Below, one piece after another: positions 10,835-59,443 of a stretch of DNA of 64,000 bases. The notes below the pieces were generated by a model that saw nothing but the letters and a program-made list of their open reading frames with translations, had not been told where the DNA came from and did not search any database. The DNA is from Octopus vulgaris. Taxonomy: Eukaryota. The position numbers and the translations under genes were made by a program. The stretch's first letter is position 1. Every line of letters starts with the position of its first letter. The stretch covers positions 11,098,001 to 11,162,000 of the forward strand of contig OX597839.1 in NCBI GenBank assembly GCA_951406725.2. Direction: 5' to 3'.

Positions 10835-11435
10835 GGCGAGCTGGCAGAAACGTTAGCATGCCTGGCGAAATGCTTAGTGGTATTTCGTCTGCCGTTACGT
10901 TCTGAGTTCAAATTCCGCTGATGTCGACTTTGCCTTTCATCCTTTCGGGGTCGATAAATTAAGTACCAGTTACGCACTGGGGTCGATGTAATTGACTTAA
11001 TACCTATGTCTGTCCTTGTTTGCCCCTTCTGTGTTTAGCCCCTTGTGGGTAGTAAAGAAATAGGTATTTCGTCTGCCGTTATGTTCTGAGTTCAAATTCC
11101 GCCGAGGTCGACTTTGCCTTTCATCCTTTCGGGGTCAATAAATTAAGTACCAGTTACACACTGGGGTCGATATAATCGACTTAATTCCGTATGTCTGTCC
11201 TTGTTTGCCCCTTCTGTGTTTAGCCCCTTGTGGGTAGTAAAGAAATAGGTATTTCGTCTGCTGTTACGTTACGTTCTGAGTTCAAATTCCGCCGAGGTCG
11301 ATTTGCCTTTCATCCTTTCGGGGTCGATAAATTAAGTACCAGTCATGCACTGGGGTCGATGTAATTGACTTAATACCTATGTCTGTCCTTGTTTGTCCCC
11401 TCTATGTTTAGCCCCTTGTGGGTAATAAAGAAATA
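10835..11435 (+). mobile_element. SINE family B with body triplicated head-to-tail
   Basis: One head then three units of about 185 bp starting GGTATTTCGTCTGC at 10879, 11063, 11248; GGTATTA at 10828-10834 and 11436-11442. Confidence 0.92.
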
Positions 11436-11609
11436 GGTATTATAGGTGGGTGGGTTTGTCTTGGTTGAAATGCTTTTGATGGTAGTGGCCAAGCAACAGC
11501 AATTCAGCTAATTCAAGTTGGCGGTTTGAAATCAGAGTAATTTGCTGTGTTGGAGTCTCAGACATTAAACATTGTAATGTTTGAACACCTAATCTTCTGA
11601 TCGTTACTG

Positions 11610-26080: not shown

Positions 26081-26435
26081 GTCTTTTACTTGTTTCAGTC
26101 ATTTGACTGTGGCCATGCTGGAGCACCGCCTTTAGTCAAGCACATTGACCCCAGGACATTTTCTTTGTAAGCCTAGTACTTATTCTATCGATTTTCTTTT
26201 GCCGAACCGCTAGGTTATGGAGATGTAAACACACCAGCATCGGTTGTCAAGCGATGTTGGGATATATATATATATATATATACATACGATGGGCTTCTTT
26301 CAGTTTCCGTCTACCAAATCCACTCACAAGGCTTTGGTTTGCTCGAGGCTATTGTAGAAGACACTTGCCCAAGGTGCCATGCAGTGGGACTGAACCCGGA
26401 ACCATGTAGTTTGTAAGCAAGCTACTTACCACACT
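26081..26435 (-). mobile_element. SINE family A
   Basis: Reverse complement of 445-834, small internal deletion. Confidence 0.9.
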
Positions 26436-27734
26436 ATGTGTGTGTGATGGTCTGTTAATGTTCGTCCCCCAGGTTGGCTTGGGTTGCATGGTTTAGCATG
26501 TTCCAAAGGGTGTGAGGACTGCATTATGCTCCAATGCCTGCTTTATATGTGGCATGATGTGATTAATCAGAGGCTGAATAAAATATTTCTTTAAGGACTG
26601 AGCATTCGATAATTGTATGAGGTTTTTGAAACCAGTTTGTGGGGTGGGGCAAGCCTACTGATTTTCTTTCAAGCTTACTGTTTTCTCCTCAAGGAGGAAA
26701 TATCTATTGACTCAGAACGGCTTCTACAATCATCTGCCACTCTGTACATAGATAAATAAATGAATAACTATCTAGGTGCAGGCATGTGTTCTAGGGCAGT
26801 ATACTACTATAACCCAGAGCTGACCAATGCCTTGTGTGTCAATATGGTAGATGGAAACCCAAAGGAGCCTGTCGTGGCTGCAGTCCACTGACTAGAGAAA
26901 GTAGAAGATAAATAATGGATGGTTATGTATCTAAGATTGCATTATCTCGTATGTCCTTCACTGCATAATGTAGGGAGATAATAGGTATCTGGCTGCTATT
27001 TCTACCAGGCTAACCAACATCATGGAGGCTCCCTCACTGATTCAGTCTATAATCTGGTGTTCTATACAAGACAGGATGTGTGTCTCATCTGCTGATTGAC
27101 CATAAAATTGGAACTATTCCGTGGCCATAAGAAGCACTTTGTGTCAACTGGATGGATGTTATTATTCTCTTCAATGGCATTATTTAGTGCTGCATTATTG
27201 AACATCATTTCTAGCAGAATGTCTAACAACTTCTCTAAGGATAAAACATGTCTTTTCAAAGCAGCAAGGCTATATCTTGTCACTGGTGTTTTATTCCAGT
27301 TCAATTACCGATCTACAGGCAACAGATGTTTTAGAGATATTACAAAACCACTGGAAGGATATGCAAATTAGAAATTCTATGCTGCAATTCTTTACAAAAG
27401 GGAAGGAAGGACAGAATTAAAAAAAAAAAAAGCAACAACAAAAATTAAAAAATGAAACTGGTTCTGCTCTCATCTCCTTAAACTTTCTCATTATGAGCTT
27501 AAATTTGCCTATGGAGAAAAATTCTATTTGTAATTGGAATACGTTAATGAGGGTATTTCTGTGGAAGTGGAGGTTGCTTGATATAGAAATAGCAACTAAA
27601 TTTCCCTCAGAACTGACCTTTCTAGTTAAAATAAAAATGTGTTGTGAAGGACGTTCAGTTCTACAAACCATTCCAAAGCAAACATTGGGGTTTGGTGCAA
27701 TCTTCTGGTTCACTGGCTCCCTTTGAACCATTAA

Positions 27735-27952
27735 CCCTTTTTAAAACAACCTGGCTGAAACCACCTCTGGCACTGTAGTACACATGTCTTGTTTTCATAA
27801 GTTTTGAATTAAAATCTTCCACCAAACCTTAGTCGCAATCTATGTTCTTAACACCAGCTTAATGATAACTAAGTTGTTTTCCTAAATTCTTTGTTATATT
27901 TAAAATTAATTGAAACACAGAGCACCTCAAAATAAATACAGTGACAAAAGGG
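27735..27952 (+). mobile_element. MITE family P1 inserted in an old family C copy
   Basis: TTAA 27731-27734 and 27953-27956; CCCTTT/AAAGGG termini; C-like sequence either side (about 27645-27730, 27957-28020). Confidence 0.85.
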
Positions 27953-28355
27953 TTAAACCCATGACAGTATGGAAAATGCATGTTGAATGGTGATGGTGGT
28001 AGTGGTGCTGATGATGATGATGATAGGCAAATTGAGCGAAATAATCTTATATACGTGATGATTGAATATAAACTAGAATGATTGTGGATAGAATGTTTTG
28101 GATGATAATCTCTTTAATCAGAGGTTAATTAGAATGAGGGTAGGGCTAAAGGGCTAATAACAACAACAGAAGTGGCTGCAGCAACACTAACAATATCTGT
28201 CCAAACATTTGGCTAAATATCACACAGCTGAAGCATTGAAATAAGCACCGATTGTGGCTTCATAATTAGTCTGAATTATTCATAATTAACTGTGAACATT
28301 AATTGTCCTTGGAAGTCCTGCCACCACTGTGCAGGTTAGATATAACTTTTCTGTA

Positions 28356-28392
<37 letters not shown>

Positions 28393-28394
<2 letters not shown>

Positions 28395-28562
28395 CCGGAG
28401 TAAACACATAAATGTGAAACAAGGTGGAAAAAAGAGTACTCAAATACCAGGGGTAGAGTAATATGCTTTATTTAAAAGCAGCAAAACAAAAACTGTCCGA
28501 CGAACGGGAACGTGAAACTCAGAGTAACAGGTTTTGTTGAATTTCTGCTGATTTTAAATAAA

Positions 28563-28564
<2 letters not shown>
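28393..28564 (+). mobile_element. Short fold-back element in microsatellite carrying a hammerhead-like motif (Penelope-like)
   Basis: Between (TG)n and (TA)n; imperfect inverted arms 28461-28496 and 28527-28568 around the motif. Confidence 0.65.
28493..28530 (+). ncRNA. Type-I hammerhead-like ribozyme motif (U4->C variant)
   Basis: CTGT-CCGACGA-ACG(GGAA)CGT-GAAAC-TC-A-GA-GTA-ACAG: all three stems pair, GUA triplet. Confidence 0.65.
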
Positions 28565-28616
<52 letters not shown>

Positions 28617-28749
28617 CAATAAGAAAATGGAGGAGATCAATAGGTGGTTCAACTTTTAGACATTACATTATGTCAATTTAGTTATTTATTTACTAAAATG
28701 ACAATTACAAGAATATACATACATGTATAACATTATGCTTTACATATAA

Positions 28750-28796
<47 letters not shown>

Positions 28797-28927
28797 GTAT
28801 ATATGTATATATATGTATATATATGTATATATATATATATATGTATATATGTATATATATGTATATATGTATATATGTGTATATATGTGTATATATGTGT
28901 ATATATGTGTATATATGTGTATATATG

Positions 28928-28958
<31 letters not shown>

Positions 28959-30344
28959 CAGATGAACAACTAAGGATCACATGGGAAAATCATACATGAG
29001 GGAGATATTCATCCCTCATCAGTTAGCAACCAAGACCATCACAGTTTCACACCATTATTGATGTGTGAGTGTGTGTGTGTATATATGTGCGCACATGTGT
29101 GTATGTGTCTTTATAAATACACACACTCACACACATCAGTTTCTGCTTGGTGAAAGTTTGAATTTGAATTAATAAACTTCTTAGATTTAAAACTTCCCCT
29201 CCCTCTGTTCCTACTCCTGTGTAATTCTTTTAACTCATGGGAGACTTAAATTGCAAATTGATGTTAATATCTGCTATCAGATGAATAATTTCACATTTTC
29301 ATCTTAGTTTAGATAGTCTCTGGGGGCAGAATGTTGGAGCCCCCTCTATATCCCTGCCTCCCTTTTTATCAGTCTTCTTCATAGTGGTGGTATTCCTTCT
29401 GACTCCCCTCATATCCTATCAAATAACACAAATACTAGAAGGAAATACTTATGCTGGGGATTTTTTTTTTTTTTAATGAGGCCTGTTTTTGATGAAAGAG
29501 AGCTAGTGGTACACACACACACACACACATATTTCTGTGTGTGTGTGTGTGTGCCAAGGAGGACAAAATTCTATGACCCTTCTCTTTCACCCTTGTCATT
29601 TTGTTGGGTAGCAGTGGGGTGGGTTGTAATTTTTAGTAAGCACTCCTGAGACAGAGCATATGCACGCACACAAAAACACTCTTAATGAACATGCTCCCCC
29701 AATATACAGGCATGAACATGCATACCAACACACACACACAGACACACTTTCCTTTTTTTTTTCACTTTTGAGAATGTCTTAGAAAATAATTTATATGCTT
29801 TTTGGTTTGTAAGAAATCTAACAAGAGTCAGAGATATTAAGGAATCCTAGATGCAAGACATGCTATTCTGATGCCAGACTGGGATGGGGTTGCAGGAAGC
29901 AGTGCTCATTGCTTTTGTTTACCTCAGTTGTTTTGTTTCTAACGAGCACTTAATTCTTGTAGTCTTTATTTTTCTTTACTTTGGGGTAGATTACCCTTTT
30001 TTCTTTCTTCTTTAATTGTTTTACAAGCTGAAATATTTGGCCTTAAGATGAATTAACTCCACTCAATCAAGAAAATCATGTCTTTTATTTTTTTTAATTT
30101 TCCTTCTCATCTTTTTAGTTTTGTCTGATTTTCTGAATTTTTTTCTTTGTCTTTTTAATTTTGTGTCTGAGATTTGCCTAAAAGTAATGGCCCCCACCTG
30201 GTAAAGCTTTCGTTTTTTTCCCCCCCTGAAAACACACAACAGTCTAGAGTAACCTGGCAAGAAAAGTTACATTGGAAGTCAGAGGAATGAAAGAAAATAA
30301 GAACAGCAGGGAATCCTCAATTAAATTACAACAACAGCAATAAT

Positions 30345-30675
30345 CTAGGCACAAGGCTGGCAATTTTGAATGGGATAGGGTGAGGTTAGTTGATACCATC
30401 ATGTCCAGTACTTGACTGGTACTTTATTTTATCACCCTCGAAAGAATAAAAGATGAAGGTAACTTCAACAGGATTTGAGCTCAGAGCGCAAAGAACGAGA
30501 AGAAATATTCAAGCCATTTTTTACCAATGCTACACGCTACAATTCTTATTTCTTTATTGCCCACAAGGGGCTAAACACAGAGGGGACAAACAAAGACAGA
30601 CAAATGGATTAAGTCGATTATATCGACCCCAGTGCGTAACTGGTACGAAAGGACGAAAGGCAAAGTCGACCTCGG
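30345..30675 (-). mobile_element. SINE B2 copy followed by truncated SINE B copy
   Basis: CTAGGCACAAGG tail at about 30346; TTTCTTTATTGCCCACAAGGGGCTAAACAC at about 30549. Confidence 0.8.
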
Positions 30676-32745: not shown

Positions 32746-32766
32746 GGGGGCCTATATATATATATA

Positions 32767-32995
32767 GGCCTCACATTCAAAATGTGACTGCGTGTGTACC
32801 ATTGGCGATTTTTTTTTCCCTCCCCATCTTCCCTTCTTTGGATCTTTCCTTTTCCTATGTTTCTGACAAAGAGCTCCACTCGAAACGTTAAACCCTCCTT
32901 TTTTCGTTCTTTCCTGAGCGTCCAATTATACTATACTTGTTCCACGTCCTCGCGTTATTGTGTTTTCTCTTTGTGTTTTCATGTTTGGATTAACT
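32767..32995 (+). mobile_element. Pyrimidine-rich element in (TA)n with hammerhead-like motif
   Basis: (TA)n on both sides; similar layout to 38905-39060. Confidence 0.65.
32859..32893 (+). ncRNA. Minimal type-I hammerhead-like motif, degenerate
   Basis: GTTT-CTGACAA-A-GAG(CTCCA)CTC-GAAAC-GTT-AAAC; stem I GTTT/AAAC perfect; G8 position mutated to A. Confidence 0.6.
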
Positions 32996-33013
32996 ATATA
33001 TATATGTGATTAT

Positions 33014-38245: not shown

Positions 38246-38948
38246 CTTTCTGTGCCTCTATATTGATAAAATGTATTAAACCCTAGTGTTGGGTTGGACA
38301 TGATCAGCTAAACCCTTCAAGCAGTAGCCCCAACAGTCCAGTGACTAAAACAAGTAACAAAATAGAAGAATGTTAAGTTAATTTCAGAGACCAGCATAAT
38401 AATGAAGAAAGCTAATTATTTTACTAAACTTTTTAAATATTGTCAAATACTACTTGGTATTGGGATAGTAACCAGTTAATTACCATCATACATTCTGGTC
38501 CTCTTATCAGTGCTATGTCAGGCATGGTTGTGTTAATCTTGACTGTGTCTGCCTGATTCTATACAGTGGGATCATTGTATGTCATGGTTATCAGATTTTA
38601 AATGCGTCTGGGTTGAATTGGACTTGGTAGAGCATGTCTGTCTCTATGTGGCCCAACTACTCATGGTATCTTACAGTTTAACCCCAGTCAGTGCTGATGG
38701 AATGTATTCCCACCATGACAAGCTCATCTTGTGTGTGTGTGTGTGTGTGTGTTGCACTTTATGTTTGAGAGTCTGATGAAACTATAGGGTGTTACTCAGT
38801 TACTCAGCGATGAGTCCACCACATCTTATTGTGGAAACAGCTGTGAGCTAATGAAGTTCAGAAGACAATCCTTTATTCCTTTGCCATCTCTCGTAACTAT
38901 ATACTTGCTGTTGGCAATTTTTTTTTCTTCCCTCTTTGGACTTTTCCC

Positions 38949-38981
38949 TTTCTGATGAAGAGCTATGCTCGAAACATAAAA
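38949..38981 (+). ncRNA. Minimal type-I hammerhead-like motif
   Basis: TTT-CTGATGA-A-GAGC(TAT)GCTC-GAAAC-ATA-AAA; canonical CUGAUGA and GAAA, perfect 4-bp stem II, weak stem I, stem III mismatch. Confidence 0.65.
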
Positions 38982-40701: not shown

Positions 40702-41460
40702 GCAAGCTGGCAGAATTGTTAACACCCCAGGCAAAATGCCTGTCTTTACATTTGAGTCCAAATTCTGCTGAGGTTGACTTTGCCTTTTATCCATTCGATG
40801 TTGATAAAATAAGTACCAGTTGAGTACTGGAGCTGATGTACTCGACTTACACCTTCCCCCAAAATTGCTGGCCTTGTGCCAAAATTTGAAGCCATTATTT
40901 TTAAGGTAGCCAGCTGAAAGAATTGTTAAAAGGTTGTAAAAAAAATGCTTTGCATATTTCCTTCTGGCCCCATATGTTCTAAATTCAAATACTACTGAGG
41001 TCAACTTTGCCTTTCATTCATCAAGGGTCAATAAAATAGACATCATGGGGTCAAATTGATGGTGTTGTATCAAAATGGGGGAAAAAATTATTATTATTTT
41101 CAGGGTGGCTAACTGGCAGAATCATTGAAATATTGGAAGAAAATGCTTTGTGGAGGTCAACTTTGCCTTTCATTCATCAAGGGTCAATAAAATAGACACA
41201 TGGGGGTCAAATTGATGGTGTTGTATCAAAATGGGGGAAAAAATTATTATTTTCAGGTTGGCAAACTGGCAGAATCATTGAAATATTGGAAGAAAATGCT
41301 TTGTGATATTTTGTTCAACACTTTACGTTTTAAATTCCAATACCACCAGAGTTAACATTATCTTTCATCCTTTTGAGATCAATAAAACCCAGTACTAGTC
41401 AGGTACCGCGGTTGATGATAACTGACTAATCTCCTCCTTCAAATTTCAAGCCTTGTTTCT
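40702..41460 (+). mobile_element. Stack of head-to-tail SINE B2 copies including a tandem duplication of about 155 bp
   Basis: CTGGCAGAAT-type heads at about 40707, 40914, 41113, 41266; 40997-41152 nearly identical to 41153-41305. Confidence 0.8.
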
Positions 41461-58829: not shown

Positions 58830-58925
58830 CCATAAATATTTGGCTCTTGGTTGCCTTTAACAAAGTCCATTCACTTTATTTACATTATTTACATTCGATG
58901 GATATTTGTCCTCATCTTGTTTGTT

Positions 58926-58970
58926 GTGACATGTTTTGGCTGATATATCCTCCAGCCTTCTTCAGGTGTC
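58926..58970 (-). ncRNA. Degenerate minimal hammerhead-like motif
   Basis: GACAC-CTGAAGA-A-GGCTGG(AGGATATA)TCAGCC-AAAAC-ATGTC; GAAA reads AAAA. Confidence 0.55.
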
Positions 58971-59019
58971 TTGGGGGAAATTTCGAACCTGGGTTCTCAT
59001 TGTTTGGTATTTTTCAATG

Positions 59020-59057
<38 letters not shown>

Positions 59058-59181
59058 GTTCTGGTCACTGCTTGGAATCGAACTTGGAATCTTTGGGGTT
59101 AGTAGCTTGTGCTCTTAACCACTATGCCATATGCCCATGGGCAACCTTAGGAATGAGAATCCAGGTTCGAAATTTCCCCAA

Positions 59182-59227
59182 GACACCCGAAGAAGGTTGG
59201 AGGGTACATCAGCCAAAACGTTGTGTT
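59182..59227 (+). ncRNA. Degenerate minimal hammerhead-like motif (inverted copy)
   Basis: GACAC-CCGAAGA-A-GGTTGG(AGGGTACA)TCAGCC-AAAAC-GTT-GTGTT; stem I GACAC/GTGTT. Confidence 0.55.
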
Positions 59228-59443
59228 AACAACAGACAAGATTAGGACAAATATCCGTCTAATGTAAAAAATGTACATAATTCCTCGTCTCTTAAATATA
59301 GAGCCGTATTATCCATTCACTTTATTGCAATCTTTCAAACCATGCAAATCCGTTTCTCTCTTCGCTTATGCTTTTTTATGCGAGCACTGACCTGTTGGTA
59401 TTTATGTTGGATATTTACCGCTTCCTAGGTTCTGCTCATTATG

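What the first reader, a model, noticed from the sequence alone, without database searches (positions are those of the whole stretch)
28393..28568. Best-formed hammerhead fold, with U4->C core variant, capping a long hairpin
Seen: CTGT-CCGACGA-ACG-GGAA-CGT-GAAAC-TCAGA-GTA-ACAG has stems I, II (GGAA tetraloop) and III plus a GUA site. Stem I extends about 35 bp through imperfect inverted arms. The CpGs are intact, suggesting youth. The same CCGA change occurs at 59187. Inference: either a natural core variant or a recently inactivated copy.
Basis: partly seen in the sequence, partly recalled or inferred. Interest (0 to 1): 0.7.

Follow-up and report, generated by a model that had tools for sequence, protein, structure and literature searches.

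The report
High-copy repeat with C4 hammerhead core
A very abundant animal repeat, likely the tail end of a Penelope-like jumping gene, carries a small hammerhead self-cutting RNA motif whose odd core letter (C for U) is the majority form in all three organisms checked, so it is a natural variant that probably still cuts slowly (untested), and most of the long hairpin is likely just an inverted second copy.

Summary
The motif is real: a small type I hammerhead at 28493-28530 with stems of 4, 3 and 3 bp, a GUA site, and C instead of U at core position 4 (28498). In contigs of four public runs (three organism codes), thousands of contigs lie on the stretch and C is the majority. T makes up 2-5% of depth in three DNA runs and 15% in one small run. 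So this is a family-wide variant, not one recently broken copy. The outer 26 bp of the hairpin come from a 5'-truncated inverted second copy, the head-to-head layout known for Penelope-like elements; that junction is rare in the family. The CCGA at 59187 belongs to a different, decayed family whose sister copy has CUGA, so it supports nothing. U4C is already known: in a viroid (slower, still infectious) and in zeta/betaviroid-like RNAs (cleaving in vitro). I found no report of it as the majority form of an animal retroelement family, but one key paper could not be read. Cleavage is untested and no parent element was found. Verdict: new variant of a known kind, modest interest.

The parts
28357..28390 (.). 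(GT)n microsatellite abutting the 3' end of the inverted copy
   Evidence: in other copies the letters before 28391 are mostly (TA)n (loose ends)
28391..28483 (-). Inverted, 5'-truncated second copy of the element's 3' tail (no hammerhead); its inner end is the 5' arm of the long hairpin
   Evidence: In other copies this stretch runs on into the reverse complement of the hammerhead's 3' side (loose ends behind 28476, 28483, 28486); arms 28461-86 / 28543-68
28484..28492 (+). Head-to-head junction and A-rich leader that pairs with 28533-38 as a distal extension of stem I
   Evidence: Depth at 28484-87 is 1000-2750 against 448,815 at 28498 in X2; fold
28493..28530 (+). Small type I hammerhead motif: stem I 4 bp, stem II 3 bp with GGAA loop, helix III 3 bp, GUA site with predicted cut after 28526
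28498..28498 (+). Core position 4 = C (U in the canonical core); family majority
   Evidence: T in 4.8, 4.3, 2.1 and 15.3% of depth in X2, X3, X15, X9
28517..28525 (+). Palindromic helix III strand (4 + 1 + 4), able to pair between two copies; centre 28521 is the most variable letter of the motif
   Evidence: 28521 non-A in 30, 34, 43 and 29% of depth; dimer hammerhead -13.6 against -2.0 kcal/mol for two monomers
28531..28568 (+). Proximal 3' tail of the hammerhead-bearing copy, ending about 70 nt short of the family's usual end; 3' arm of the hairpin
28564..28616 (.). (TA)n then (GA)n microsatellite abutting the 3' end of the + copy

Best explanation
This is a head-to-head pair of copies of a very abundant non-coding repeat, likely the 3' pseudo-LTR stub of a Penelope-like retroelement, and the + copy holds a small type I hammerhead motif whose C at position 4 is the family's majority letter and which would probably still self-cleave, slowly and best as a dimer. 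SHOWN: the motif, the abundance, the C4 majority in three organism codes, the inverted layout and the microsatellite ends. INFERRED: (1) an autonomous Penelope-like element elsewhere copies these stubs into (TA)n-type sites and sometimes adds an inverted 5'-truncated copy, which makes the outer hairpin; (2) C4 arose in a master element before its subfamilies split and was amplified with it; (3) cleavage survives because a protonated C can stand in for U in a U-turn; (4) the palindromic helix III favours two-copy folding, while in this copy the accidental hairpin clamps stem I and would help single-copy folding.
For: (4 of 24 listed runs laid, 80% likeness, 3% threshold): T at 28498 is 2.1-4.8% of depth in three DNA runs and 15.3% in one small run (6 contigs). 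Non-reference majorities are seen when present (28551 A>C 92-99.8%; 28451 G>A 99.7% in X15). None of the other 10 core letters (28497, 28499, 28500, 28502, 28503, 28514-17, 28526) reaches 3% change in any run. The strongly variable letters are the unpaired helix III centre (28521), the first letter after stem I (28531), and 28529 A>G in X15 (42%), which keeps a U-G pair. Loose-end consensuses give a 5' ATCAC form and a 3' GTGAT form, complementary but not phased. Layout: Craig et al. 2021 (PMC8557442, passages) describe inverted 5'-truncated copies, hammerheads near 3' ends and (TA)n targets for Penelope-like elements. Cervera and de la Pena 2014 (PMC4209133, parts 1-2 of 4 and supplement parts 1-2 of 3) describe small hammerheads with palindromic helix III. 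Activity precedent: U4C lowers activity in vitro yet permits viroid infectivity (PMC3088659, passage). The CCGA-core ZV1 (-) hammerhead self-cleaves in vitro at the expected site, as do both hammerheads of beta-vdl786, one of which has CCGA (10.64898/2026.09.16.752053, passages). C+ replaces U in a riboswitch U-turn (PMC4105743, abstract start and passages).
Against: No cleavage data. No reverse transcriptase or GIY-YIG gene was seen nearby (32 frames of 50 aa or more in 26400-30500, read by eye) and the genome is not held, so the Penelope link rests on layout only. Rfam misses the motif. Stem II is only 3 bp and starts with A-U, not the usual G10.1-C11.1. The CCGA hammerheads shown active are type III, probably with tertiary contacts that this one may lack, and canonical-core minimal Penelope hammerheads are already weak. 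The hammerhead dimer is not the minimum-energy co-fold (-13.6 against -15.2 kcal/mol; -16.8 against -25.6 with flanks). Variable sites are not rarer inside the motif (4 of 38 positions) than in the distal tail (6 of 91), so selection on the fold is suggested, not shown. Contig depth is not copy number.
Confidence: 0.55

Rival explanations
1. Same element, but the ribozyme is functionally dead or irrelevant: C4 was fixed in a master copy and the family spread anyway, perhaps better, because uncut RNA is what gets copied.
For: For the anole Penelope-like element, hammerhead mutants did not affect insertion in vitro and uncut RNA was the main substrate (PMC11167929, passage). Naiads thrive without canonical hammerheads. 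In the three DNA runs the core reaches about the same peak depth as the distal tail (X2 2.46 against 2.32 million), as expected if most copies keep the core (depth is only a rough guide). Weak stems plus a damaging core change.
Against: All other core letters stay under 3% change in 4 of 4 runs while unpaired neighbours carry 3-4 common alleles. CCGA cores cleave in other replicons.
Confidence: 0.3
2. The repeat is not Penelope-derived but a retrozyme, a MITE-like fold-back element or a SINE tail that happens to hold a hammerhead.
For: No parent ORF found. The element looks like a hairpin. A 2026 preprint's title holds that animal retrozymes are themselves non-autonomous Penelope-like sequences (10.64898/2026.07.22.740005, listing and two passages), so that boundary is soft.
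Against: Not in tandem here, unlike retrozymes (150-450 bp tandems, PMC7229834, passages). The inverted arms are internal with variable junctions (several opposite-strand joints), not fixed terminal repeats. No tRNA gene in the window.
Confidence: 0.1
3. A single recently inactivated copy of a family with the canonical CUGA core.
For: T at 28498 exists (62, 62, 39 and 6 contigs). Position 4 lies 9 letters from the edge of homology, where contigs with T could be clipped.
Against: C is 85-98% of depth in 4 of 4 runs. No loose-end pile at 28499 among the 24 loose ends shown (569 more not shown). C4 sits in a CpG, so the T minority can be ordinary decay.
Confidence: 0.03
4. A chance hammerhead look-alike in an AT-rich repeat.
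For: A loose descriptor hits shuffled windows 0.48 times on average. Rfam finds nothing.
Against: 1 of 600 shuffles at the site's own quality. The pattern of variation fits the fold. Two other repeat families in the window carry hammerhead motifs in the same kind of element.
Confidence: 0.02

Closest known systems
Small/minimal type I hammerheads in pseudo-LTRs of metazoan Penelope-like elements (Cervera and de la Pena 2014, PMC4209133)
   Same: Type I, short stem I, palindromic helix III suited to dimers, AT-rich flanks, mostly dispersed truncated copies, pairs on opposite strands.
   Different: Core CCGA. None of the 56 representative rows of their Fig. S3 (text extraction) has CCGA: 53 CUGA and 3 UUGA, though their descriptors fixed the core. 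Helix II is only 3 bp, starts A-U, has no extra letter after A9; helix III is longer than minimal. No parent ORF shown here.
Natural U4C (CCGA) hammerheads: a viroid variant (Ambros and Flores 1998, seen only as cited in PMC3088659); zeta virus ZV1 and betaviroid-like RNAs (10.64898/2026.09.16.752053)
   Same: Same single core change with all other core letters canonical.
   Different: Those are hammerheads of circular RNA replicons (type III in the preprint) and were shown to cleave. This is a type I motif in animal DNA, the majority form of a high-copy family, and untested.
Head-to-head (inverted, 5'-truncated) insertions of Penelope-like elements at microsatellites (Craig et al. 2021, PMC8557442)
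   Same: Inverted truncated copy directly at the 5' end; both 3' ends abut dinucleotide repeats.
   Different: Only about 180 bp with no ORF; clade not assignable.
Non-LTR retrozymes of animals (Cervera and de la Pena 2020, PMC7229834)
   Same: Small, AT-rich, non-coding repeat with a type I hammerhead.
   Different: Retrozymes are tandem 150-450 bp units making circular RNA; this locus is an inverted pair and circles were not testable.

Membership tests
Type I hammerhead ribozyme | Three helices around the core, ends in stem I | tested here: met
Type I hammerhead ribozyme | Core C3 G5 A6 G8 A9 G12 A13 A14, A15.1-U16.1 pair, NUH site | tested here: met
   no change reaching 3% in the three DNA runs
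Type I hammerhead ribozyme | U at position 4 (consensus; natural U4C exceptions are in print) | tested here: not met
   C at 28498, family majority; exceptions. Filed as a variant, not as a canonical member.
Type I hammerhead ribozyme | Match to an Rfam hammerhead model | tested here: not met
Type I hammerhead ribozyme | Self-cleavage at the NUH site | not testable with these tools
   all runs laid are contigs, which show no RNA ends
Penelope-like element (pseudo-LTR stub) | Small hammerhead with palindromic helix III near the 3' end | tested here: met
   28517-25; about 110 nt of tail downstream in the family layout
Penelope-like element (pseudo-LTR stub) | Inverted 5'-truncated copy adjacent to the 5' end | tested here: met
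Penelope-like element (pseudo-LTR stub) | Insertion at (TA)n-type microsatellites | tested here: met
   (TA)n loose ends before 28391 in 4 of 4 runs
Penelope-like element (pseudo-LTR stub) | Linked reverse transcriptase plus GIY-YIG ORF in full-length copies | not testable with these tools
   no such ORF recognised by eye near the site; genome not held
Penelope-like element (pseudo-LTR stub) | Optional 30-40 bp terminal tail | tested here: inconclusive
   the two copies end about 70 nt apart, one end blurred by (TA)n
Non-LTR retrozyme | Tandem 150-450 bp units | tested here: not met
   inverted pair only at this locus; other loci not examined
Non-LTR retrozyme | Circular RNA product | not testable with these tools
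   no raw RNA reads listed

The most novel reading that the evidence does not exclude
An animal retroelement family shared by several related species has fixed a CCGA hammerhead core that is active and kept by selection, using a protonated-cytidine U-turn to tune cleavage down so that most RNA stays whole for copying. Such families are invisible to CUGA-based searches and to Rfam, so animal genomes would hide a large uncounted class of C4 hammerheads.
Probability: 0.3. Interest if true: 0.55.

Novelty: new variant of a known kind. Interest (0 to 1): 0.36.

Why it matters
If active, it is a natural, massively replicated test of whether protonated C can replace U4 in the hammerhead U-turn, and it shows that searches fixed on CUGA miss whole high-copy families. 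If dead, it is population-scale support for the in vitro result that Penelope-like elements need no hammerhead cleavage to spread. Either result bears on the open question of what these hammerheads are for. Both the element type and the core change are already known separately.

Tried and rejected
Own genome not held, so there is no direct copy count and no search for a parent element. Pattern scans found no relative: 0 in metagenome contigs and 0 in viral contigs. A shorter pattern gave 3 metagenome and 4 prokaryote loci, all 7 matching only 19-20 letters and dropped as chance. Rfam: nothing relevant. ARAGORN: 0 genes. No RNA holder listed on record. X9 is only guessed to be RNA; its higher T at 28498 (15%), T>C at 28525 (10% against 0.1-0.2%) and deeper tail than core rest on few contigs from another individual and are not used as evidence of editing, expression or cleavage. 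C-to-U editing as an activating switch was considered and set aside for lack of support. 'Intact CpGs mean youth of this copy' was rejected (family-wide). 59187 as a second instance was rejected. Papers not held: Lunse et al. 2017 on Penelope-associated hammerhead variants that cleave as dimers (title seen only in a reference list) and Ambros and Flores 1998; the first may already list C4 variants. The not-in-print claim rests on searches of an open-access library; one search (hammerhead + U4C) gave 1 paper. The O. vulgaris repeat paper (PMC13282606, passages) has 0 mentions of 'ribozyme'; its supplement was listed, not read. PMC11014351, PMC10886601, PMC7943196 and PMC6155905 (passages only) added nothing specific. 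Look-ups of earlier findings by sequence and by genome were empty.

Full report
Setting. The window is AT-rich animal DNA full of microsatellites and short repeats. It looks to me like an octopus genome; that label is recalled and comes from no call. The genome is not held, so family evidence comes from public sequencing runs.

The motif. The letters are as described: stem I 28493-96 with 28527-30, core CCGACGA at 28497-503, a 3-bp stem II with a GGAA loop, GAAA at 28514-17, a 3-bp helix III and a GUA site with the cut predicted after 28526. The only core departure is C at position 4 (28498). A descriptor set after the fact at these stem lengths hits once in the window and in 1 of 600 shuffles; a looser one gives 2 against a mean of 0.48 in 60 shuffles. 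Rfam does not see it. Without flanks the fold is weak (pair probabilities 0.07-0.27 for stems I and II) and 2.6-4.0 kcal/mol above the minimum. With the long arms, stem I reaches 0.69-0.93 and the gap is 1.0 kcal/mol. The helix III strand is a palindrome around one central letter, and a two-copy hammerhead scores -13.6 against -2.0 kcal/mol for two monomers, though it is not the best co-fold (-15.2).

Is C4 the family consensus? One search listed 24 runs, 21 holding the stretch or part of it, under five organism codes and ten studies. I laid 4 of the 24 (X2, X3, X15, X9; codes A, B, E, A) at 80% likeness with a 3% threshold. In them 8740, 7293, 3628 and 414 contigs lay on 194 bases, so this is a very high-copy repeat; depth is not a copy number. 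T at 28498 is 4.8, 4.3, 2.1 and 15.3% of depth. The method does see non-reference majorities: 28551 A>C is 92-99.8%. None of the other 10 core letters reaches 3% in any run; U16.1 (28525) does so only in X9 (10%). The common alleles fall at the unpaired centre of helix III (28521, 29-43% non-A), at the first letter after stem I (28531), and at 28529 in X15, where A>G keeps a U-G pair. This fits the fold. But listed variable sites are no sparser in the motif (4 of 38) than in the distal tail (6 of 91), so selection is suggested only. Position 4 lies near the edge of homology and T copies might be under-laid; no pile of loose ends at 28499 is among the 24 shown (569 not shown). C4 is therefore the family majority in three organism codes, and the T minority could be CpG decay or a small canonical subfamily.

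The hairpin. Depth collapses at 28484-87 (1000-2750 against 448,815 at 28498 in X2). In other copies the 28391-28483 stretch runs on into the reverse complement of the hammerhead's 3' side (loose ends). The usual element thus reads hammerhead, about 110 nt of tail, then (TA)n. This locus is a hammerhead-less inverted copy (28391-28483, minus strand) joined head to head with a hammerhead-bearing copy (about 28484-28568). The outer 26 bp are the overlap of the two tails. Other opposite-strand joints occur at other points. The inner part of the hairpin, a short A-rich leader pairing just beyond stem I, seems native: most copies carry such a leader, and the loose ends show a 5' ATCAC form and a 3' GTGAT form, complementary but unphased.

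The 59187 site. It belongs to another family, present as a diverging pair (58876-59001 minus, 59152-59280 plus, 85% alike). The sister copy has CTGA and both have AAAA for GAAA. A third family sits at 32863 and near 38950. The CCGA there is independent decay.

How it likely works. The layout matches Penelope-like elements: hammerhead near the 3' end, inverted 5'-truncated copy, (TA)n targets (PMC8557442, passages), and small hammerheads with a palindromic helix III that act weakly as dimers (PMC4209133, parts 1-2 of 4 of the text and parts 1-2 of 3 of the supplement). No parent ORF was found, so membership is likely, not shown. U4 starts the U-turn and contacts the A6-N7 phosphate (PMC3088659, section 8). 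U4C lowers activity but leaves a viroid infectious (same paper, passage). A CCGA hammerhead of zeta virus ZV1 cleaves in vitro at the expected site, and both hammerheads of beta-vdl786 cleave, one of them CCGA (10.64898/2026.09.16.752053, passages). Protonated C can replace U in a riboswitch U-turn (PMC4105743, passages); applying this to the hammerhead is my inference. I put slow residual cleavage at 0.55. The main rival (0.3) is a dead ribozyme carried along, since cleavage was dispensable for insertion by the anole element in vitro (PMC11167929, passage).

Novelty. The element type and the U4C change are each known. Earlier notes of this scan describe similar head-to-head hammerhead stubs in another genome and recurrent U4C in phage hammerheads (unchecked AI notes). 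In searches I found no report of U4C as the majority form of an animal retroelement family. It is absent from the 56 representative rows of Cervera's Fig. S3, whose search fixed the core. Lunse et al. 2017 could not be read and may cover it. Verdict: a new variant of a known kind, interest 0.36.

Noticed in passing
window 58876-59280: Diverging (5'-to-5') pair of a second minimal-hammerhead repeat family, 85% alike; both copies have lost G12, and the + copy also has C4.
   Followed up: partly
window 59072-59131 (-): Between that pair, a tRNA-like A-box and B-box pair (judged by eye from recalled consensus) followed by (AAT)n, upstream of the minus-strand hammerhead copy; ARAGORN calls no tRNA. 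Could be a SINE head or a Pol III promoter driving a hammerhead element.
   Followed up: no
window 32761-33000 and about 38926-38981: Third minimal-hammerhead family between (TA)n runs: core CTGACAA (G8A) at 32863, canonical CTGATGA in the second copy.
   Followed up: partly
window 28525 and 28498, run X9: In the one run guessed to be RNA, T>C at 28525 is 10% (0.1-0.2% in DNA runs) and C>T at 28498 is 15%; possibly A-to-I editing of antisense RNA or an expressed subset of copies, but few contigs and another individual.
   Followed up: no
window 28529-28540, run X15: Organism E carries a different majority form just 3' of stem I (28531 G>T 84%; changes at 28536, 28539, 28540) yet keeps C4 at 98%, so C4 likely predates this subfamily split.
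   Followed up: partly
window 10879-11441 and 40997-41305: Tandem repeats of about 185 bp (three units, 93% alike) and about 156 bp (two units, 96%) among the short repeats.
   Followed up: no
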